Notes under the pieces: generated by a model
What the model was told of the DNA's origin: nothing
Database searches by the model: none
The model's input: only the letters and a program-made list of their open reading frames with translations
Part shown: in pieces, positions 4,638 to 60,769 of the stretch
Layout: each line of letters starts with the position of its first letter
Position numbering within the stretch: position 1 is the stretch's first letter
Source: Candidatus Aminicenantes bacterium
GTDB lineage: Bacteria > Acidobacteriota > Aminicenantia > Aminicenantales > Aminicenantaceae
DNA: 64,000 nucleotides
Direction of reading: 5' to 3'
Assembly (NCBI GenBank): GCA_029882525.1
Contig: JAOUKO010000001.1
Coordinates: 241-64,240 of the forward strand
Program-made: the position numbers and the translations under genes

Positions 4638-4806
4638 TTTCCGTAATAATTAATAATGAAGGTGCAGTCTGTTACAGCGACGGTTCCCCTCCATCCTTGC
4701 CAAGACCCTCCCCCCCTCCTCCATGGGCTTCGGATGGAGAGGAACCGTCGCTGCACTTCCCCATTAGCTCAGATGTTTTCCTTATCACGGAAACAGAGAT
4801 GCTTGC
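4638..4806 (+). repeat. Family-A intergenic hairpin element, copy 1 (arms 4677-4696 / 4732-4751)
   Basis: Shares >80% identity with elements at 8608-8777, 12140-11779(-), 23905-24156, 37321-37500; inverted repeat gcgacggttcccctccatcc / ggatggagaggaaccgtcgc with conserved loop gccaagaccctccc..ccatgggcttc. Confidence 0.8.
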
Positions 4807-4873: not shown

Positions 4874-7603
4874 ATGGCAAAAAGACACGTGTACTTTTTC
4901 GGAAAAGATCGCGCCGAAGGCAACAGGGACATGAAGGAAATCCTCGGCGGGAAAGGAGCGAACCTGGCGGAGATGGCTGGGATCGGCCTGCCCGTTCCCC
5001 CTGGTTTTACCGTTTCCACCGATGTCTGCATCTCTTACTCTAAGCTGGGAAACAAAATCCCGCCTGAAGTGGAAAGAGAAATACTGGACAATTTGAAGAA
5101 ACTGGAGGATCAGACCGGGCAGAAATTCGGAGGAGAAGAGAATCCCCTCCTTGTCTCCGTTCGTTCAGGGGCCAAGTTTTCCATGCCCGGGATGATGGAT
5201 ACTGTCTTGAACCTGGGCCTGAATGACAAAACCCTCGAGACTTTGGCCAACAGGAGCGGTGACAGACGGTTTGCCCTGGACTGTTACCGCCGTTTGATAC
5301 ACATGTTTGGGGATGTCGTGCTGGGAGTCTCCAAAAAGAAATTTGAGGAGATCCTGAAGAAAAAGAAAGAGGAGAAAAAGGTTGTCCAGGATAATGAGCT
5401 TTCAGAGCATGCCCTTCAGGAGGTGATCGCTGACTACAAGCGATTGATTAAAAAAGAAACAGGAAAAGAGTTCCCTCAGGATGTCAAAGAGCAGCTGCTG
5501 ATGTCCATTTCTGCTGTGTTTGAATCCTGGAACAACCCTCGTGCCGTGACTTACCGCCGGTTGAATCACATCCCCGATGACCTGGGCACAGCTGTCAACG
5601 TCCAGCAGATGGTTTTCGGGAATATCGGTGAGGACTCGGCGACAGGAGTCGGTTTCACCAGGGACCCTGCGACAGGGGAAAAGGAACTTTACGGCGAATA
5701 TCTCTTCAACGCCCAGGGCGAAGACGTTGTGGCGGGCGTCCGAACTCCTTCTTCTCTGAAATCATTGGAGAAGGAAATGCCCTCTGCCTACAAGGAGCTC
5801 AGCGAGATCACCACCCGGTTGGAGAAGCATTACCAGGATGTTCAGGATTTCGAGTTCACCATCCAGGAAGGCAAGCTTTATATGCTTCAGACGAGAAGCG
5901 GCAAGAGGACAGGCTTGGCTGCGGTGAAGATAGCGGTGGACATGGTTGAGGAAGGCCTTGTCAGCAAAGAGCAGGCTCTTCTGATGGTGGAGCCCGAGGC
6001 TTTGAACCAGCTTCTTCATCCTGTCTTTGATGTGGCGGAAAAGCAGAAGCATGAAGTCCTTGCCCGGGGATTGGCGGCTTCACCGGGTGCGGCCGCAGGA
6101 CAGGTGGTCTTCACTGCCGAGGAGGCTGTGACCTGGGCCAAACAGGGAAAGAAGGTGATTCTGGTTCGGGAAGAGACATCCCCTGATGATATTCATGGAA
6201 TGAGCGCCTCCCAGGGGATTCTGACGGCTACGGGCGGCATGACCTCGCACGCGGCTGTAGTCGGACGGCAGATGGGAAAGCCGGCAGTGGTCGGATGCGG
6301 AAACATCAAGCCTGATGAGGAACAGAAATTCTTCACTGTGGGGAAGACCCGCTGCAAGGAAGGAGACTGGATTTCCATCGACGGGACCTTAGGGGAAGTA
6401 CTGGAAGGAAAGATCAAGACTCAACCCTCAGAGGTCATCCAGGTTGTCAGAGGGGGAAAAAAACCCGAAGAGTCAAGATTATACCAGGATTTCACAAAAT
6501 TCCTCTCCTGGGCGGATGAGGTGAGAAAGCTGGGAGTCAGAGCGAACTCGGATACTCCTGAGGATGCCCGGACAGCCCTCGCTTTTGGAGCAGAGGGAAT
6601 CGGGCTGGCCCGGACCGAGCACATGTTTTTCGAGAAGAAAAGGCTGCCTTTCATGAAAGAGATGATTCTCTCTCAGGAAGAGAATGAAAGGCGGAAAGCT
6701 CTGGATAATCTTTTGCCCTTCCAGAAAGAGGATTTCTACGGGCTGTTCAAGGCCATGAAAGGCCATCCGGTCACCATCCGCACGCTCGACCCGCCTCTCC
6801 ATGAATTTCTTCCCCGTAAGGAAGACCTCATGGTTGAGATGGCCGAACTGAAAGCCTCTGGAAGCAAAGACGAGAAAAAGATCAAAGAATTAGAGAAACT
6901 GCTCGAGCGGGTGAAAAGCCTCTCCGAGTTCAATCCCATGCTCGGCCACAGGGGTTGCCGTTTGGGAATCTCCTATCCCGAGATCATCGAAATGCAGGCG
7001 ACTGCCATTTTTGAGGCCGTCTGCCAGTTGCTCAAGGAAGGAGAGAAGGTCTATCCCGAGATCATGGTTCCGCTGGTGGGAACGAAGGAAGAGCTCGCTA
7101 ACCAGAAGCAGATCCTTCAGCGGGTGGCTGAAGAGGTGATGAAAAAGAACAAGGTCAAGGTGGACTATTCGATAGGCACCATGATCGAGATTCCAAGAGC
7201 AGCCATCACTGCTGATGAGATTGCCGAGGAGGCCGAGTTCTTCTCATTCGGGACCAATGACCTGACGCAAATGGTTTTCGGAGTCTCCCGGGATGATGGA
7301 GCTGAATTCCTTGCTTACTACATCGCCCACGGTATCTTGAAGAACAATCCCTTTGAGACCGTTGATGTCGATGGAGTGGGTGAGCTCATGAGATGGGCCG
7401 TAGAGAAAGGCCGGAAGACCAGGCCTGACCTAAAGATCGGGATCTGCGGTGTCCACGGAGGTGATCCCCGGTCCGTGTTCTTCTGTCATAAGATCGGCCT
7501 TAACTATGTGAGCTGTTCCGCCTACCAGGTTCCCATAGCTCGCCTGGCTGCGGCCCAGGTTGCATTGATGGAAAAGACCGGAGAAGTTCTGATCGGGGAA
7601 TAG
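4874..7603 (+). CDS. ppdK: pyruvate, phosphate dikinase
   Basis: 909 aa; N-terminal KRHVYFFGKD..GGKGANLAEM, central TGGMTSHAAVVGR phospho-histidine motif, C-terminal PEP-utilising domain. Confidence 0.9.
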   Translation: MAKRHVYFFGKDRAEGNRDMKEILGGKGANLAEMAGIGLPVPPGFTVSTDVCISYSKLGNKIPPEVEREILDNLKKLEDQTGQKFGGEENPLLVSVRSGAKFSMPGMMDTVLNLGLNDKTLETLANRSGDRRFALDCYRRLIHMFGDVVLGVSKKKFEEILKKKKEEKKVVQDNELSEHALQEVIADYKRLIKKETGKEFPQDVKEQLLMSISAVFESWNNPRAVTYRRLNHIPDDLGTAVNVQQMVFGNIGEDSATGVGFTRDPATGEKELYGEYLFNAQGEDVVAGVRTPSSLKSLEKEMPSAYKELSEITTRLEKHYQDVQDFEFTIQEGKLYMLQTRSGKRTGLAAVKIAVDMVEEGLVSKEQALLMVEPEALNQLLHPVFDVAEKQKHEVLARGLAASPGAAAGQVVFTAEEAVTWAKQGKKVILVREETSPDDIHGMSASQGILTATGGMTSHAAVVGRQMGKPAVVGCGNIKPDEEQKFFTVGKTRCKEGDWISIDGTLGEVLEGKIKTQPSEVIQVVRGGKKPEESRLYQDFTKFLSWADEVRKLGVRANSDTPEDARTALAFGAEGIGLARTEHMFFEKKRLPFMKEMILSQEENERRKALDNLLPFQKEDFYGLFKAMKGHPVTIRTLDPPLHEFLPRKEDLMVEMAELKASGSKDEKKIKELEKLLERVKSLSEFNPMLGHRGCRLGISYPEIIEMQATAIFEAVCQLLKEGEKVYPEIMVPLVGTKEELANQKQILQRVAEEVMKKNKVKVDYSIGTMIEIPRAAITADEIAEEAEFFSFGTNDLTQMVFGVSRDDGAEFLAYYIAHGILKNNPFETVDVDGVGELMRWAVEKGRKTRPDLKIGICGVHGGDPRSVFFCHKIGLNYVSCSAYQVPIARLAAAQVALMEKTGEVLIGE

Positions 7604-8607: not shown

Positions 8608-8777
8608 TTTTTCCGTGACAGTTAATAATGAAGGTGTAATCTGTCACGGTGCCGGTTCCCCTCCATCCTCGCCAAGACCCTCCCACCCTCCTTCATGGGC
8701 TTCGGATAGAGGGGAACCGGCGCCGCACTTCTCAATTGGTCGAATATTTCCCTCATCACGGAGATAGAGATGCTTTC
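8608..8777 (+). repeat. Family-A intergenic hairpin element, copy 2
   Basis: Aligns along its length with copy 1; stem mismatch displaced relative to copy 1 (stem preserved). Confidence 0.8.
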
Positions 8778-11778: not shown

Positions 11779-12140
11779 AAGCTTTTTGCGTGTTCTCTAT
11801 TTCCGTGATGAGGGAAACATCCCACCTAATGTAAACGCAGTAAATAAGGGTACAATCTCTGTGCGGCCTGGATGCCGCCCTCAACCCCCGGACCCCGAGG
11901 GAACCTGTCCCGTCGGTTCCCCCCGTCGGATAAGCCGACGAGTCCCCCCTCCGCTACGGGGGCGCAGGGGCGGCATCCAGGCCCGCTCAATAGAGGATGT
12001 CACACGAATTATTGCGTTAATATGAGTTGAGAAGTGCGGCGGCGGTTCCCCTCTATCCGAAGCCCATGAAGGAGGGGGGGAGGGTCTTGGCTGGGATGGA
12101 GAGGAATCGGAGTTTTAACAGATTACACCTCCATTAAAAC
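11779..12140 (-). repeat. Composite repeat: family-A element (copy 3) interrupted by GC-rich B-module (approx 11829-12020)
   Basis: Reverse complement aligns with copy 2 up to cacttctcaa, then with the 37120-37313 B-module, then with the family-A tail ...gggatgtttccctcatcacgg. Confidence 0.75.
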
Positions 12141-31664: not shown

Positions 31665-31704
31665 ATTGGCTTTCTTCCATTTTGTGTGGGTTTTCATTAG
31701 TATC

Positions 31705-32103
31705 GGAACGACAGGGAAATCGAATCGCTCCAGTCGGATTTTTAACGCCATTCCCTCCCCATCCTTCTCGGTCCTGCGGAACTCCGCATGTCTATCTTAT
31801 CTCACGCCTGAAGCTCTATCTTTTTTCAATCCCGCTTGATCAACCACTCCGTGCTCAAACAGTCCTCGGACCCGACTGTGTCGGTTTCCCTCGAAGGACA
31901 ACATCGTTGCGGAGAAACGATGTTGGGGGGATCCAAGGGGGTATGTCCCCTTGGTCGCAGGACGCATGTCCGAGAAGGGGAGGCAGCGAGTCGCAAGGAA
32001 GCGAGCGAGCGTTGGAAGGGGGAAGGCAGAGCGCTTTCCCCTCCAAGGAGGCTCGGGAAGGCTAAATCCTCCGATGTCGCTCTGGTGATTTCCCTGTTGT
32101 TCC
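31705..32103. repeat. Family-B MITE, full-length copy with ~40-bp terminal inverted repeats
   Basis: Left end GGAACGACAGGGAAATCGAATCGCTCCAGTCGGATTTTTAACGCC; right end reverse complement GGAACAACAGGGAAATCACCAGAGCGACATCGGAGGATTTAGCC; no coding capacity. Confidence 0.7.
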
Positions 32104-32162
32104 TAATATCGAATATATGTGTATGTTACCCACACAAAATGAAAGAGAGTCAATGAAATAAA

Positions 32163-32262
32163 TAAAGGGACAGGCTAGTTATAAGGGACTGTCCCTTTCA
32201 GTCCTTTTGATATGATAGAGAGGGACTGTCCCCTTTCGCAAAATTAGCCTGTCCTTTTTTTC
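32163..32262. repeat. Family-C nested palindrome element (GGGACAGGCT - 2x GGGACTGTCCC - AGCCTGTCC - T7)
   Basis: Read directly; a second copy with same architecture at 59260-59385. Confidence 0.7.
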
Positions 32263-32411
32263 TGGCTTTTTATTTGAGAAAAAATGATGCAAGGATTCGT
32301 TATCTTTACTGAAAAAGCGACTCGAAAATCCGGGCTAAAAAGTCATAGAGCCGTTTCGCTTAAGGAAAGGAAGAGAATCTCGGGTTTATTTGAAATAAAA
32401 GGGAGCTATAT

Positions 32412-33827
32412 TTGAAACGTCATCTTCTTCTCGATATTCTCAGCATGATCAAAAAGGAAATACAATCGGACAATGTAAAGGTTCTCGTGTTGAACGAGAA
32501 AAAAGAAATCATCTTTCGGAAAGGGCTCGGCAGCTCCCAGAATGAGAACGAGCACCTCGACCATGCTGTCATCCAGAAATGCATTGAGGAGAAGCAACCG
32601 GCTAACATCTATGGAGGCCGCGGGCTTTCAGGATGGGAATGTTCTAAAAATGGCTCAAAGAATATCCTCTGCCTTCCTTTTATCATTGAAGGAAAACCGG
32701 CCGGAGTTCTCTATCTGGATAGAAGTGACAGCCCCGATCCCTTTACTCTTCAGGATTTGGAGCTCCTGATCGTGCTCTCCAAGCCTATCCAGTGGGTGTT
32801 GAAGAATGGACAGAAATTCCAGGAGGCCGCCACCGGAAAAAATGGATTAGCCGGGTCTTTGCTGAGGGGCCGGAGTGGAGCTTTGAAGAGGATCATCACC
32901 TTGATTGACAGGGTGAAGGATTGCGAAACTCCTGTTTTTATCTGTGGAGAGAGCGGTACAGGAAAGGAGCTCGTCGCCAGAGCCATTCATCAGAACGGCA
33001 CAAGAAGGAACGGTAAATTCGTTGCGGTGAACTGCGGGTCCTTGCCTGAGCATCTTCTGGAGAGTGAGCTGTTTGGCTATGTGAGAGGAGCCTTTACCGG
33101 GGCCTTGAGGAACAGACCGGGATTGGTTGAAGAGGCCAATGACGGCACTTTCTTCTTGGATGAGATCGGGGACTTGCCTCTTTTTCTCCAAGCGAAACTC
33201 CTTCGGCTTCTCCAGGAAAAGGAGATCAGGAGGATTGGCGCTAACAGGGTTTTTACAGTGAATGGGAGGTTCATTAGCGCTACAAATAAGGATATTGAGC
33301 GAGAGGTTGAATGTGGGAATTTCCGTAAAGACCTGTATTACCGCCTCAAGATCATTACCATCGAGATTCCTCCTTTGAGGGAGAGGAAGGAAGACCTTCT
33401 TTTTCTGCTGGATTATTTTCTCGAAAGATACTGTGGGGATATGAAGCGGGAGAGGGTCTATTTTTCCCCAGGGGCGCTAGAGCTACTGATGGACTATTCT
33501 TGGCCGGGAAACGTAAGAGAGCTTCAGAACGAAATCCAAAGGTGTCTGGTCTTGACGGGGGAGGATAGTCTTATCAAAGAGGAATATCTTTCTCCGAAGA
33601 TCAATCCCGGGGCAGTGAAGTTCTCCAAGTCAAATTATGAATTCTATCAGGCTAGAGCCGAGTTTGAGAAAAGATTTTTAAGCCAGGCTCTTGCCCGCTG
33701 GAATTACAGCAGAACGAAAACGGCTGAAGAAGTGGGCTTGAGCAGGCAGGGTCTGTTTAAGTTGATGAAGAAATACAGGATAGATGCCAATAAGCGCAGA
33801 GAGACAGGCAATCAGAAGAAAAGGTAG
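32412..33827 (+). CDS. sigma-54-dependent transcriptional activator (GAF domain + AAA+ + Fis-type HTH)
   Basis: TTG start with AAGGGAG RBS; GESGTGKE Walker A, GAFTGA sigma-54 contact motif, C-terminal HTH. Confidence 0.85.
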   Translation: MKRHLLLDILSMIKKEIQSDNVKVLVLNEKKEIIFRKGLGSSQNENEHLDHAVIQKCIEEKQPANIYGGRGLSGWECSKNGSKNILCLPFIIEGKPAGVLYLDRSDSPDPFTLQDLELLIVLSKPIQWVLKNGQKFQEAATGKNGLAGSLLRGRSGALKRIITLIDRVKDCETPVFICGESGTGKELVARAIHQNGTRRNGKFVAVNCGSLPEHLLESELFGYVRGAFTGALRNRPGLVEEANDGTFFLDEIGDLPLFLQAKLLRLLQEKEIRRIGANRVFTVNGRFISATNKDIEREVECGNFRKDLYYRLKIITIEIPPLRERKEDLLFLLDYFLERYCGDMKRERVYFSPGALELLMDYSWPGNVRELQNEIQRCLVLTGEDSLIKEEYLSPKINPGAVKFSKSNYEFYQARAEFEKRFLSQALARWNYSRTKTAEEVGLSRQGLFKLMKKYRIDANKRRETGNQKKR

Positions 33828-38323: not shown

Positions 38324-38383
38324 GCCTTCCTCCCTCAGTATCTTCCTGATCTAGGAAAGGGGGAGGATTTGCTTTCAATCCTT

Positions 38384-56369: not shown

Positions 56370-56605
56370 TTCATTTTCAGGTAAGTGCTGGTCCCGGGAG
56401 TGTTAAATATTTTTACACTTTGTCTTGCGGGATTCAGGAAAGCCTCCTTTTGAAACCCCCTGCTCCTCTCAAGACGGCATTTTTCTGGATATGTTTAAGA
56501 TGGCATGAAAATTGCTGATGTTTTTTAACACTGGAGCAGTGAAGAGAAAAGAGCCATTTCGAAGACGAATTTTGCCTGATGCCTTGTTCGAACTCTTAGC
56601 CTGTA

Positions 56606-59251: not shown

Positions 59252-59259
59252 GGAAAAAA

Positions 59260-59385
59260 GGGGACAGGCTCTTTTTTCAAAAGAAATGGGACAGTCCCTA
59301 TTTTTCCTAATAAAGGGATTAAAAGGGACAGTCCCAAAAAAAGAGCCTGTCTCCTTTTCTCCAAAAAATTAGCCTGTCCCCTTTT
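59260..59385. repeat. Family-C nested palindrome element, copy 2, between convergent genes
   Basis: GGGACAGGCT, GGGACAGTCCC x2, AGCCTGTC, AGCCTGTCCCC in the same order as 32163-32262; abuts stop codons of both flanking genes. Confidence 0.7.
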
Positions 59386-60769
59386 AAACGATTTCTGTCA
59401 CGTCTATCTTCAGCCTTTTGATCATCTCGTTCAAGGTCGTGGCCTTGACTCCCAAGAGGCTGGCCGCTTTTTTTTGGATTCCGTTGCTCTGCTTGAGAGC
59501 TCTGAGGATAGCCTTTTTCTGAATGGTTTGGAGGTTTTCTTTGAGGTTGAGATCCTGATTGGACAGAGTAAGAGCCAGACCTTTATCCGGGGCGGAAAGG
59601 AGGAAAGGAGGAAGATTGTCTCTGGTGATGAGTTTGGTTTTTGTCAGGACGACCGCTCTCTCGATAAGGTTTTCCAGCTCTCTGATGTTTCCCGGCCAAT
59701 CATAGCTGATCAGGATCTCCATGACATCCGGGGTAACACCCTCGATTTCTTTATTGTTTTCCTGACTGTATATATCCAGAAAGTGTTTGACGAGAAGCGG
59801 AATGTCTTCTTTTCTTTCCCGCAAAGAAGGCAGCTCAATCTTGATGACGTTCAATCGGTAAAAGAGGTCTTGCCGGAATCTGCGTTCCTGTATGAGCACC
59901 TCCAAGTCTGAGTTGGTGGCTGCGACGACTCTCACATCGACCCTGATCGTCTTTGTTCCTCCGAGCCTCATGAATTCCCTCTCCTGCATTACCCGCAGCA
60001 GCTTGGATTGAGTCTCTATGTTGAGAGTGGAGATCTCATCGAAAAAAATGGTCCCGTATTCAGCCGCTTCAAACAGCCCTTTTTTTAAGCTGACGGCGCC
60101 TGTGAACGCTCCTTTGACATGTCCGAAGAGATGACTCTCGAGAAGGTCTGGAGGAAGAGAGCCACTGTTGACGATGATGAAGGGAAAGCTCGCCCGGTCA
60201 CTGTTCTGGTGAATGGCCCTGGCAACAAGTTCTTTACCCGTACCGCTTTCGCCTTGAATGAGGATAGTGCTGCGCGTGGGAGCAGAGGCCTTGATCGTTT
60301 CAAAGACATTCTGCATGACTTTACTTTTTCCGATGATGTTCTCGAAGCTGTATTTTCTTTTGAGCTCGTCCTTTAACTTCAGGTTTTCTTCCTGAAGGTT
60401 CTTATGTTCTATGGCTCTCTTCACCGTCAGCAGTAGCTCATCATGTTTAAAGGGCTTCTGGACGTAGTCGAAGGCCCCTATTTTCATGGCGGAAATCGCT
60501 GATTCCACCGAGGCGTAAGCGGTGATGATGATGATGACAGAACGAGGGTCCCTTTTTTTTAATAATTTCAAAACTTCAATCCCATCCATTCCAGGCATGA
60601 GCAGGTCCAGAAGGATGAGGTCGAACGTCTGGGAGGGATGCTTCTCCAGAGCCTCTTCCCCGTTTGCCGAGTTAACAACGGCGTATCCCTCAGAGGTTAA
60701 GAGTTCACCCAGAACCTCGTGGATGATTGGCTCATCGTCGATGATGTGAATCTTTCCTTTGTGTTCCAT
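59384..60769 (-). CDS. sigma-54-dependent two-component response regulator (NtrC family)
   Basis: REC domain (DDEP...D LILLDLLMPGMDG), GESGTGKE, GAFTGA, C-terminal HTH. Confidence 0.85.
   Translation of the reverse strand: MEHKGKIHIIDDEPIIHEVLGELLTSEGYAVVNSANGEEALEKHPSQTFDLILLDLLMPGMDGIEVLKLLKKRDPRSVIIIITAYASVESAISAMKIGAFDYVQKPFKHDELLLTVKRAIEHKNLQEENLKLKDELKRKYSFENIIGKSKVMQNVFETIKASAPTRSTILIQGESGTGKELVARAIHQNSDRASFPFIIVNSGSLPPDLLESHLFGHVKGAFTGAVSLKKGLFEAAEYGTIFFDEISTLNIETQSKLLRVMQEREFMRLGGTKTIRVDVRVVAATNSDLEVLIQERRFRQDLFYRLNVIKIELPSLRERKEDIPLLVKHFLDIYSQENNKEIEGVTPDVMEILISYDWPGNIRELENLIERAVVLTKTKLITRDNLPPFLLSAPDKGLALTLSNQDLNLKENLQTIQKKAILRALKQSNGIQKKAASLLGVKATTLNEMIKRLKIDVTEIV

What the first reader, a model, noticed from the sequence alone, without database searches (positions are those of the whole stretch)
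32163..32262. Family-C nested palindrome (GGGACAGGCT / 2x GGGACWGTCCC / AGCCTGTCCC) upstream of a sigma-54 GAF activator; second copy beside the sigma-54 response regulator
Two loci carry the same ordered arrangement: an outer inverted repeat GGGACAGGCT...AGCCTGTCC(C) enclosing two copies of the 11-bp palindrome GGGACWGTCCC with 20-27-bp spacers. One is at 32166-32254, then T7, about 150 bp upstream of the sigma-54 activator gene at 32412. The other is at 59260-59385, between the convergent stop codons of the M1 peptidase and the sigma-54 response regulator gene. Both are adjacent to the only two sigma-54 enhancer-binding-protein genes in the window. Spaced palindromes are typical enhancer-binding-protein or dimeric regulator binding arrays. 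Alternatively this is a structured bidirectional terminator or REP-like element. A weak TGGC-N10-TTGA -24/-12-like sequence sits at 32262-32277.
Basis: partly seen in the sequence, partly recalled or inferred. Interest (0 to 1): 0.55.

Follow-up and report, generated by a model that had tools for sequence, protein, structure and literature searches.

The report
Dispersed palindromic repeat, not regulator site
The two nested palindromes are copies of a roughly 100-bp hairpin-forming repeat scattered through Aminicenantes genomes; it probably derives from a tyrosine-transposase element and probably acts as a two-way transcription terminator, and its position beside the two sigma-54 activator genes is coincidence.

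Summary
Both loci carry the same ordered architecture: GGGACAGGCT arm, two GGGACWGTCCC palindromes 26 nt apart, then an AGCCTGTCC arm. Both fold into very stable long hairpins.

The regulatory interpretation fails.
- A covariance model finds 32 further copies on 28 unrelated metagenome contigs. None is next to a sigma-54 activator gene.
- Most copies abut gene 3' ends, often filling the gap between convergent stop codons.
- In orthologous loci of related Aminicenantes, the copy upstream of the GAF activator is inverted and decayed, while the adjacent 150 bp is well conserved.
- The copy beside the response regulator is duplicated in 95%-identical relatives. It is absent in 81-82% relatives, where the two stop codons lie 1-33 bp apart.

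The outer arm GGGGACAG matches the published GGGGWSAS core of terminal inverted repeats flanking TIRYT/RAYT-like Y1 transposases. Genes of that kind flanked by the same motifs were found in other lineages.

Best reading: a non-autonomous, REPIN/MITE-like TIR-dimer repeat. Flanked by A- and T-tracts, it probably serves as a bidirectional intrinsic terminator. This is a new member of a known kind and of modest interest.

GGGACWGTCCC twin hairpins recur across many phyla and in Mu-like phages. I found no description of this in the papers I searched.

The parts
32161..32261 (+). Locus 1: complete element copy in 'T-form' orientation. It runs from an A-rich lead-in through the outer stem and inner stem to the T7 tail.
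   Evidence: CM R1 scores 90.8 bits on + and 54.8 on -. Hairpin -48 kcal/mol, z = -6.4.
32167..32176 (+). Left outer arm GGGACAGGCT. The family consensus is GGGGACAGGCT, which carries the GGGGWSAS core.
   Evidence: motif from PMC3733652 and PMC6006769
32185..32195 (.). Inner palindrome 1, GGGACTGTCCC
32196..32204 (+). TTTCAGTCC, a conserved extra half-site-like block that gives the element its polarity
   Evidence: Conserved in 13 of 15 aligned copies.
32222..32232 (.). Inner palindrome 2, GGGACTGTCCC. It pairs with palindrome 1, leaving a central U.U mismatch.
32246..32254 (+). Right outer arm AGCCTGTCC
32255..32261 (+). T7 tract directly after the outer stem (terminator-like tail)
   Evidence: T-tract conserved across the family
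59255..59386 (-). Locus 2: complete element copy in reverse orientation plus one extra outer arm. It fills the gap between the convergent stop codons.
   Evidence: CM R1 scores 113.5 bits on - at 59255-59359 and 70.1 on +. Hairpin -65.3 kcal/mol, z = -7.6. Gene ends.
59261..59270 (+). Outer arm GGGACAGGCT, preceded by AAAAAAGG
59288..59298 (.). Inner palindrome GGGACAGTCCC
59325..59335 (.). Inner palindrome GGGACAGTCCC
59344..59353 (+). Inner right arm AGCCTGTCTC, the pairing partner of 59261-59270 in the minimum-energy fold
   Evidence: inverted repeat I3, 92% complementary
59371..59381 (+). Additional right arm AGCCTGTCCCC followed by TTTT. It is either an alternative partner for the left arm or a remnant of a second copy.
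   Evidence: I1
32412..33827 (+). GAF-AAA+-HTH sigma-54 activator gene. A neighbour, not part of the element.
   Evidence: Pfam; orthologs
59384..60769 (-). REC-AAA+-HTH sigma-54 response regulator gene. A neighbour, not part of the element.
   Evidence: Pfam; orthologs

Best explanation
Both loci are copies of a dispersed, non-coding, roughly 100-110-bp nested palindromic repeat family found in Candidatus Aminicenantes genomes.

Structure: the element is a miniature pair of terminal inverted repeats (5'-AAAA-GGGGACAGGCT ... AGCCTGTCCCC-TTTT-3'). These enclose two GGGACWGTCCC palindromes that pair with each other.

Origin (inferred): the arms carry the GGGGWSAS core that characterises the inverted repeats flanking TIRYT/RAYT-like Y1 (HUH) tyrosine transposase genes. 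The element is therefore most likely a non-autonomous REPIN/MITE-like derivative. It would be copied in trans through its single-stranded DNA hairpin, and it leaves no target-site duplication.

Local effect (inferred): copies accumulate at gene 3' ends. When transcribed from either strand, a copy gives a very stable hairpin followed by a U-tract. It would then act as a bidirectional Rho-independent terminator and 3'-end protector. Locus 2 would terminate the convergent M1-peptidase and HK-RR transcripts. Locus 1 would insulate the activator gene from upstream transcription.

Shown: the repeat family, its hairpin covariation, its positions, its turnover between relatives, and its lack of association with EBP genes. 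Inferred: mobilisation by a Y1 transposase and the terminator activity.
For: 1. Organism and family.
- Protein names of close homologs place the window in Candidatus Aminicenantes.
- A metagenome pattern scan returned many contigs with the identical ordered architecture.
- Alignment A2 of 15 copies shows near-invariant blocks and unrelated flanks.

2. Copy number.
- CM R1 finds 32 copies on 28 contigs (196 kb). Several contigs carry 2-3 copies a few kb apart: L205, L156/L226, L173, L148.

3. Hairpin is maintained.
- 95.6% of cells are paired.
- 6 pairs show compensatory changes, and 0 of 500 shuffles reach this. Slid controls pair only 46-62%.

4. Position.
- Of 15 copies with both neighbours called, 6 lie between convergent genes, 7 between tandem genes and 2 between divergent genes.
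- One-sided cases face a 3' end 6 times and a 5' end once.
- For comparison, the window has 4 convergent intergenic regions out of 29.
- Several copies fill the stop-to-stop gap exactly: L182, L237 and window locus 2.

5. Neighbouring genes are unrelated.
- They encode DUF998, OsmC, DsbD, SDR, AcrB and FtsX proteins.
- No sigma-54 AAA+ gene lies near any copy.

6. Turnover at orthologous sites.
- In relatives with 84-87% EBP identity, the locus-1 site holds an inverted, decayed copy (AGGACAGTCCT, GGGACAGTTCC; one palindrome lost in L303). The next 150 bp is highly conserved.
- In relatives with 95% RR identity, the locus-2 site holds two copies in a 417-bp spacer, one with different outer arms.
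- In relatives with 82% and 81% RR identity, the two stops are 1 and 33 bp apart with no element.

7. Link to a transposase.
- Arm GGGGACAG equals GGGGWSAS / GGGG[AT][CG]A[CG], the core of TIRs flanking TIRYT genes (PMC3733652 and PMC6006769).
- RAYT-like Y1_Tnp genes lie beside GGGACWGTCCC pairs in L001, L030, L099, L195 and L260. In L099 and L260 the motifs are on both sides, and L260 also has GGACAGG/CCTGTCCC arms.
- Y1_Tnp+DnaA_C genes are flanked by GGGGTCAGGCTTGCAA inverted repeats, a one-base variant of the window arm.

8. No target-site duplication at 12 copies, as expected for Y1 rather than DDE transposition.

9. A- and T-tracts flank the outer stem in nearly all copies.
Against: - No Y1 transposase gene with GGGGACAGGCT inverted repeats was found in the window or in about 250 kb of Aminicenantes contigs. 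The cognate mobilising enzyme for this family is therefore inferred from other lineages and a one-base-variant TIR.
- The genome-wide copy number in this MAG is unknown. The window has only 2 copies in 64 kb.
- Terminator activity is untested. The stem-loop is far longer than canonical terminators, and the standard terminator scan does not call it.
- Locus 1 lies about 500 bp downstream of the nearest stop codon.
- The 11-mer centres are T/T (or A/A) in every copy, although a compensating change would give a perfect pair. This hints at sequence-specific recognition beyond simple hairpin stability.
- Both window copies beside the only two EBP genes has a nominal chance probability of about 0.01 (3 of 29 intergenic regions).
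Confidence: 0.75

Rival explanations
1. Enhancer/UAS array: the spaced palindromes are binding sites for the adjacent sigma-54 activators (GAF-EBP and NtrC-type RR). They would autoregulate these genes or drive a nearby -24/-12 promoter.
For: Both window copies lie beside the only two EBP genes. The nominal chance probability is about 0.01. Perfect 11-bp palindromes are typical dimer sites.
Against: - No credible -24/-12 promoter lies near either locus. The best match in the window is 2.7 kb away at 56501, and matches overall fall below chance expectation.
- Locus 2 sits between two stop codons.
- 0 of 32 other copies are near an EBP gene.
- The palindromes decay or invert at the orthologous EBP1 site, while the flanking promoter region is conserved.
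- The element is absent at the RR site in 81-82% orthologs.
- The same 11-mer recurs in phyla and phages unrelated to these EBPs.
Confidence: 0.03
2. Locally evolved intrinsic terminators only: two unusually long bidirectional terminator hairpins that resemble each other by convergence or local duplication, with no mobile-element history.
For: A- and T-tracts flank GC-rich stems on both strands. Locus 2 lies exactly between convergent stops.
Against: - More than 30 copies with near-identical internal sequence sit at unrelated loci on many contigs.
- Relatives show presence/absence, duplication and inversion.
- The loop and spacer sequence (TTTCAGTCC) is conserved, and a terminator has no need for it.
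- The arm matches the TIRYT TIR core.
Confidence: 0.08
3. Binding array for another sequence-specific dimeric DNA-binding protein, such as a nucleoid-associated or genome-maintenance factor. It would recognise GGGACWG half-sites, and the hairpin potential would be incidental.
For: - The 11-mers are invariant while the junctions covary.
- The centre base is never compensated.
- There are seven GGACWG-like half-sites per element.
- The motif is specifically enriched against control palindromes: 45 loci against 10, 3, 0, 0, 0 and 0.
Against: - Spacing between twin 11-mers across lineages ranges evenly over 20-32 nt with no helical phasing.
- The spacer itself forms a hairpin in 139 of 163 pairs.
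- Compensatory changes support pairing.
- A known class of proteins (Y1 transposases) already accounts for GGGGWSAS recognition.
Confidence: 0.08
4. Structured small-RNA genes, for example a regulatory sRNA with its own terminator, present in multiple paralogous copies.
For: Very stable folds with covariation. A T-tract follows the stem.
Against: - No Rfam family matches even at permissive thresholds; only generic long-hairpin miRNA models score, far below cut-off.
- No conserved promoter precedes the copies.
- The flanks are unrelated.
- Both orientations occur relative to neighbouring genes.
- Many copies are truncated or decayed.
Confidence: 0.04

Closest known systems
TIR repeat families derived from TIRtrons (TIRYT, TnpA-Y1 subclass 2.1): Di Nocera et al. 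2013 (PMC3733652), Quentin et al. 2018 (PMC6006769)
   Same: - The inverted-repeat arms carry the conserved GGGGWSAS / GGGG[AT][CG]A[CG] core; here it is GGGGACAG.
- The repeats occur as dimers or clusters that can fold into hairpins.
- They are intergenic and moderately abundant.
- They are found in phyla that lack GTAG REPs, including Acidobacteria and Planctomycetes.
- There is no target-site duplication.
   Different: - No TIRYT gene flanked by this exact arm was found in the sequence available for this lineage.
- The element has an extra inner layer of two perfect 11-bp palindromes plus a polar TTTCAGTCC block.
- A/T tracts give it terminator anatomy.
- The GGGACWGTCCC twin module is not mentioned in those papers.
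REP / REPIN-RAYT systems (Nunvar 2010; Bertels & Rainey 2011; own knowledge plus PMC3337134 abstract)
   Same: - Short palindromic units arranged as inverted doublets that form a long hairpin.
- Dispersed in intergenic regions, mainly downstream of genes between tandem and convergent ORFs.
- Associated with single-copy Y1 HUH transposases that are flanked by the repeats, as seen here in L099 and L260.
   Different: - There is no unpaired GTAG (or CGTC) tag.
- The conserved motif lies inside the stem.
- The RAYT-like proteins score just below the NCBIfam equivalog cut-off: 63-79 bits against 80.
Terminator-bearing MITEs such as Neisseria Correia/NEMIS elements and enterobacterial ERIC/IRU (own knowledge; listed in PMC3733652 background)
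   Same: - Imperfect palindromes of 70-150 bp with terminal inverted repeats.
- Co-transcribed with neighbouring genes.
- Fold into strong RNA hairpins that can terminate or stabilise transcripts.
   Different: - Those elements derive from DDE-type IS, and Correia elements have a TA target duplication. Here no duplication is seen and the arm motif points to a Y1 transposase.
- There is no sequence similarity.
Canonical bidirectional Rho-independent terminators
   Same: A-tract, GC-rich stem and T-tract, symmetric on both strands, placed between convergent stop codons (locus 2).
   Different: - The hairpin spans about 90-120 nt with two stacked helices, not 5-14 bp with a 3-8-nt loop.
- The same sequence is reused at dozens of unrelated loci.

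Membership tests
Sigma-54 EBP upstream activating sequence | Lies about 80-200 bp upstream of a -24/-12 (TGGCAC-N5-TTGCW) promoter | tested here: not met
No match with 2 or fewer mismatches lies near either locus. Locus 2 lies between two stop codons.
Sigma-54 EBP upstream activating sequence | Binding motif conserved together with the regulator in orthologous loci | tested here: not met
   The locus-1 copy is inverted and decayed in 84-87% orthologs, while the next 150 bp is conserved. The locus-2 copy is absent in 81-82% orthologs and duplicated in 95% orthologs.
Sigma-54 EBP upstream activating sequence | Motif copies elsewhere associate with EBP genes or sigma-54 promoters | tested here: not met
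   0 of 32 copies on 28 contigs (196 kb) have a sigma-54 AAA+ gene nearby.
Sigma-54 EBP upstream activating sequence | Bound by the EBP's C-terminal HTH | not testable with these tools
   Needs EMSA or footprinting.
TIRYT-associated TIR repeats (TIRtron derivatives) | Inverted-repeat arm containing GGGGWSAS | tested here: met
   The family consensus arm is AAAAGGGGACAGGCTAC. GGGGACAG fits GGGG[AT][CG]A[CG].
TIRYT-associated TIR repeats (TIRtron derivatives) | Repeated family organised as dimers or clusters in the genome | tested here: met
   Inverted arm pairs occur at every copy. There are 2-3 copies per contig on several contigs, and two adjacent copies in L307/L308.
TIRYT-associated TIR repeats (TIRtron derivatives) | The same arms flank a Y1 transposase gene (subclass 2.1, C-terminal HTH) in the same genome | tested here: inconclusive
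   No Y1 gene occurs in the window or in the Aminicenantes loci held, and the full genome could not be scanned. The one-base variant GGGGTCAGGCTTGCAA flanks Y1_Tnp+DnaA_C genes in L311-L317. L260 and L099 have RAYT-like genes flanked by GGGACWGTCCC.
REP / REPIN (RAYT-mobilised) | Inverted doublet of short palindromic units forming a long hairpin, extragenic, multi-copy | tested here: met
REP / REPIN (RAYT-mobilised) | Unpaired GTAG (or CGTC) tag at one end of each unit | tested here: not met
   No GTAG or CGTC occurs at unit ends in alignment A2.
Intrinsic bidirectional terminator | GC-rich hairpin immediately followed by a U-tract on both strands, downstream of stop codons | tested here: met
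   Locus 1 has T7 on + and TTTATTTATTT on -. Locus 2 has T6 on - and T4 on +. The consensus scanner does not call them because the loop exceeds 8 nt.
Intrinsic bidirectional terminator | RNA 3' ends map to the U-tract; termination in vitro | not testable with these tools
   Needs Term-seq or in vitro transcription.
DDE-type MITE | Target-site duplication flanking the inverted repeats | tested here: not met
   The longest direct match between flanks averages 2.5 nt, against 2.8 nt for random pairs.
Curated RNA families (Rfam 15) | Match at or near a family's gathering score | tested here: not met
   0 hits at gathering threshold in the window. Only generic hairpin models score, far below cut-off.

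The most novel reading that the evidence does not exclude
The GGGACWGTCCC 'twin-palindrome hairpin' (11-mer, variable stem-loop, 11-mer; usually extended to GGGGAC...GTCCCC) may be the signature of a large superfamily of Y1-transposase-associated repeats. I did not find it catalogued in the papers searched. It would be a third type beside GTAG- and CGTC-tagged REPs.

It spans at least ten bacterial phyla: Planctomycetota, Acidobacteriota/Aminicenantes, Bacillota, Bacteroidota, Actinomycetota, Omnitrophota, Nitrospirota, Kiritimatiellia, Pseudomonadota and Saccharibacteria. It also occurs in Mu-like phages.

In Aminicenantes the module is nested inside GGGGACAGGCT arms and may have been co-opted as the standard bidirectional terminator.
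Probability: 0.3. Interest if true: 0.55.

Novelty: new member of a known kind. Interest (0 to 1): 0.3.

Why it matters
For this window, the result removes a tempting but false regulatory link. The two sigma-54 activators are not marked by a shared enhancer.

More generally, it gives a concrete sequence model (alignment A2, CM R1) for a repeat family in an uncultured lineage, Aminicenantes. Annotators could mask these copies or use them as strain markers and as likely operon boundaries.

It also connects the published GGGGWSAS core of TIRYT inverted repeats to an 11-bp palindrome that is specifically over-represented across phyla and in phages. If the Y1-transposase link holds, these elements offer a tractable system. 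They could show how HUH transposases seed genomes with hairpins that are later used as terminators.

Tried and rejected
- **Rfam.** I searched at gathering and permissive thresholds on the window, the element and phage loci. Nothing was found.
- **Literature search for the literal motifs.** It returned only unrelated primer sequences. Searches for the assembly and run accessions found nothing.
- **BLAST of a phage-type twin hairpin against isolated phage genomes.** No match.
- **Looking for full-length elements.** I searched for arms 0.4-4 kb apart enclosing a transposase. The hits were only adjacent small copies.
- **Stop-free-frame test for whether twin hairpins are intragenic.** It was uninformative in GC-rich loci and I discarded it.
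- **Canonical-terminator reading for the cross-phylum twin modules.** Only 12-19% have A/T-rich flanks against 7.5% background, so I dropped it outside the Aminicenantes family.
- **Ideas considered and rejected for lack of any matching feature:** CRISPR-like mini-arrays, self-cleaving ribozymes, nut/boxB-type sites, attC sites, restriction-site artefacts, and a tRNA-like cloverleaf.
- **The first genome-contig scan used too general a pattern.** A genome-wide count for this MAG could therefore not be obtained.

Full report
**Observation.** The sequence is as described. Locus 1 reads AAAGGGACAGGCT-N8-GGGACTGTCCC-N26-GGGACTGTCCC-N13-AGCCTGTCC-T7 (32164-32261). Locus 2 reads AAAAGGGGACAGGCT-N17-GGGACAGTCCC-N26-GGGACAGTCCC-N8-AGCCTGTCTC-N17-AGCCTGTCCCC-TTTT (59257-59385). 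These are the only four GGGACWGTCCC sites in 64 kb, even allowing one mismatch. Chance expects 1.08, and 2 of 100 shuffles reach four. Both loci fold into long two-tier hairpins: -48 kcal/mol (z = -6.4) and -65 kcal/mol (z = -7.6), with 0 of 200 shuffles folding as well. [quoted passage not shown] The neighbouring genes are a GAF-AAA+-HTH activator (32412-33827) and a REC-AAA+-HTH response regulator (59384-60769), the latter with its PAS/GAF histidine kinase. They are the only sigma-54 activator genes in the window.

**Origin of the window.** Exact-protein look-up places the window in MAG GCA_029880145.1 and two ENA assemblies. Close homologs of both regulators are named Candidatus Aminicenantes. 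Strain-level copies are identical across the element.

**The element is a dispersed repeat family.**
It returned many contigs with the full ordered architecture, including a conserved polar block TTTCAGTCC after the first palindrome.
- Fifteen complete copies align with near-invariant blocks and unrelated flanks. The consensus is AAAAGGGGACAGGCTACTTTTT..GGGGACTGTCCCTTTCAGTCCTT-N-AGAGAGGGACTGTCCCC..AAAAAGTAGCCTGTCCCCTTTTT.
- RNAalifold gives an 18-bp outer helix and a 14-bp inner helix in which the two palindromes pair, leaving a central U.U mismatch. 95.6% of cells are paired. Six pairs show compensatory changes, and 0 of 500 shuffles reach this. Slid controls pair only 46-62%.
- A covariance model (R1) finds only the two copies in the window.
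- It finds 32 copies on 28 metagenome contigs (196 kb), several with 2-3 copies a few kb apart.

**Test of the enhancer hypothesis.**
- None of those 32 copies has a sigma-54 AAA+ gene nearby. Their neighbours encode DUF998, OsmC, DsbD, SDR, AcrB and FtsX proteins.
- The window has no credible -24/-12 promoter near either locus. The best match (TGGCATGAAAATTGCT, 56501-56516) lies upstream of the M1 peptidase gene, 2.7 kb from locus 2. Matches overall fall below chance expectation.

**Orthologous loci are decisive.**
- Upstream of the GAF activator, relatives with 84-87% protein identity keep the synteny. They carry the element inverted and decayed: AGGACAGTCCT and GGGACAGTTCC, with one palindrome lost in L303. 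The 150 bp between the element and the start codon is highly conserved.
- At the RR/M1-peptidase junction, 95% relatives have a 417-bp spacer with two copies. One has different outer arms and one is decayed.
- In 82% and 81% relatives, one of them a closed 2.75-Mb genome, the two stop codons are 1 and 33 bp apart with no element.
- With 3 of 29 intergenic regions flanking EBP genes, the co-location in the window has a nominal probability of about 0.01. I attribute it to chance.

**Position and likely local function.**
- Of 15 copies with both neighbours called, 6 lie between convergent genes, 7 between tandem genes and 2 between divergent genes. One-sided cases face a 3' end six times and a 5' end once. 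In the window, by comparison, 4 of 29 intergenic regions are convergent.
- Several copies fill the stop-to-stop gap exactly.
- The outer stem is bracketed by an A-tract and a T-tract in nearly all copies. Transcription from either strand therefore yields a strong hairpin followed by U's.
- I infer bidirectional intrinsic termination and 3'-end protection. This is not shown, and the consensus terminator scanner does not call such long hairpins.

**What kind of repeat it is.**
- A GTDB scan showed GGGACWGTCCC pairs in well over 100 genomes from many phyla. They usually take the form 11-mer, stem-loop, 11-mer.
- In IMG/VR the pair pattern occurs in 45 loci. Six control palindromes gave 10 (GGGTCWGACCC), 3, 0, 0, 0 and 0 loci.
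- Among 163 distinct pairs, the spacer forms a hairpin in 139. The bases outside the pair are G (74%) and C (71%). Spacer length ranges evenly over 20-32 nt.
- Clustering the ORFs around these pairs revealed a Y1_Tnp family (Pfam). Its best NCBIfam match is 'REP-associated tyrosine transposase' at 63-79 bits (cut-off 80), against 22-24 bits for IS200.
- These genes lie beside the 11-mers in Planctomycetes (L001, L030), a Eubacterium MAG (L099, motifs on both sides), a sediment contig (L195) and a low-GC IMG/VR contig. That last contig (L260) has motifs on both sides together with GGACAGG/CCTGTCCC arms, and 15 11-mers in 11.7 kb.
- Homologs of the L195 protein form a large family of 312-aa Y1_Tnp+Bac_DnaA_C proteins, which JGI names 'REP element-mobilizing transposase RayT'. 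Their genes are flanked by inverted repeats GGGGTCAGGCTTGCAA.../...TTGCAAGCCTGACCCC, one base different from the window arm GGGGACAGGCT.

**Agreement with the literature.** Di Nocera et al. 2013 describe TIRtrons: RAYT-like 'TIRYT' genes flanked by inverted repeats sharing GGGGWSAS. Some of these have seeded moderately abundant TIR repeat families organised as dimers (PMC3733652). Quentin et al. 2018 assign TIRYTs to TnpA-Y1 subclass 2.1, which has C-terminal DnaA_C/HTH domains and the flank consensus GGGG[AT][CG]A[CG] (PMC6006769). GGGGACAG and GGGGTCAG both fit that consensus, whereas four of the five control palindromes with few or no hits do not. The family shows no target-site duplication, as expected for Y1 rather than DDE transposition.

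**Conclusion.** The two loci are copies of a REPIN/MITE-like TIR-dimer repeat of Aminicenantes. It was most likely spread by a TIRYT-type Y1 transposase through its ssDNA hairpin, and it now sits at gene ends, where it probably terminates transcription in both directions. The family, its hairpin, its genomic positions, its turnover and its lack of association with EBP genes are shown. The transposase link for this particular lineage and the terminator activity are inferred.

**Novelty and caveats.** The element is a new member of a known kind. None of the REP/RAYT papers I could search mentions the GGGACWGTCCC twin module. Its breadth across phyla and in Mu-like phages is the most novel thread left open. 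The main limits are as follows:
- The full MAG could not be scanned.
- The cognate transposase was not found.
- The metagenome contigs were ascertained by the motif itself.

Noticed in passing
window 31944-31983: A 40-bp segment (AAGGGGGTATGTCCCCTTGGTCGCAGGACGCATGTCCGAG) is present in the window, L122 and L123 but missing in L121, L124 and L125, which are otherwise identical strains. It contains the hairpin CCAAGGGG-GTATGT-CCCCTTGG, whose reverse strand reads GGGGACAT (GGGGWSAS-like), and it is bounded by AAGGGG direct repeats. This suggests recent gain or loss of a small GGGGAC-type palindrome.
   Followed up: partly
window 31665-32160: About 500 bp downstream of the TPR gene has no called gene. 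Both ends are conserved in 84-87% relatives, while the middle is replaced in one lineage. It could be a non-coding RNA or leader whose terminator is the locus-1 element. There is no Rfam match.
   Followed up: no
window 32262-32411: The 150 bp directly upstream of the GAF activator start is far better conserved between relatives than the element itself. It is presumably the real promoter and 5'UTR of that gene.
   Followed up: partly
window 56501-56516: This is the best sigma-54 -24/-12 match in the window (TGGCATGAAAATTGCT, one mismatch). It lies 105 bp upstream of the M1 peptidase start, so that gene may be the sigma-54-dependent target of the neighbouring HK-RR pair.
   Followed up: no
window 4675-4753, 8647-8725 and 11865-11983: Two copies of a different 79-bp hairpin occur (arms CAGCGACGGTTCCCCTCCATCC / GGATGGAGAGGAACCGTCGCTG, 35-nt loop). 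A third GC-rich 119-bp inverted repeat lies at 11865-11983. These are other palindromic repeat families in the same genome.
   Followed up: no
L300 15696-15790 and 1181-1269; L303 10499-10600; window 38324-38383: Relatives carry a second nested-palindrome family (GGGGACGTTCCC..GGGGACACC...GGTGTCCCC..GGGAACGTCCCC), also GGGGWSAS-like. At one convergent intergenic site, L300 has this element, the window has an unrelated plain hairpin, and L303 has only the 12-bp palindrome GGGGACGTCCCC. That pattern looks like different fill states of one site.
   Followed up: partly
L246, L273, L254 and related IMG/VR contigs: Mu-like transposable phage contigs (transposition protein B, Mu-type portal and F protein) carry 2-4 twin GGGACWGTCCC hairpins between late genes, in both orientations. 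They cannot be strong terminators there.
   Followed up: partly
L311-L317 (genes at 6001-6939 and equivalents): A large family of 312-aa Y1_Tnp + Bac_DnaA_C proteins is found mostly on 1-2-kb contigs, which suggests multi-copy elements that break assemblies. Each gene is bracketed by GGGGTCAGGCTTGCAA(A/T)ATT inverted repeats.
   Followed up: partly
L056, L036, L019 (Pirellulales MAG Zod_Metabat.393): A composite Planctomycete repeat combines GGGGACWGGC arms, a poly-T/A hairpin and a twin GGGACAGTCCC module, all inside CCGTTCACAG/CTGTGAACGG flanks. The same two building blocks as in the Aminicenantes element therefore co-occur in a distant phylum.
   Followed up: partly
L309 6434-6574: A further family copy (41 bits) sits near the T2SS/HK upstream region in an 82% relative. 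The window has no copy at the corresponding place, another presence/absence difference.
   Followed up: no
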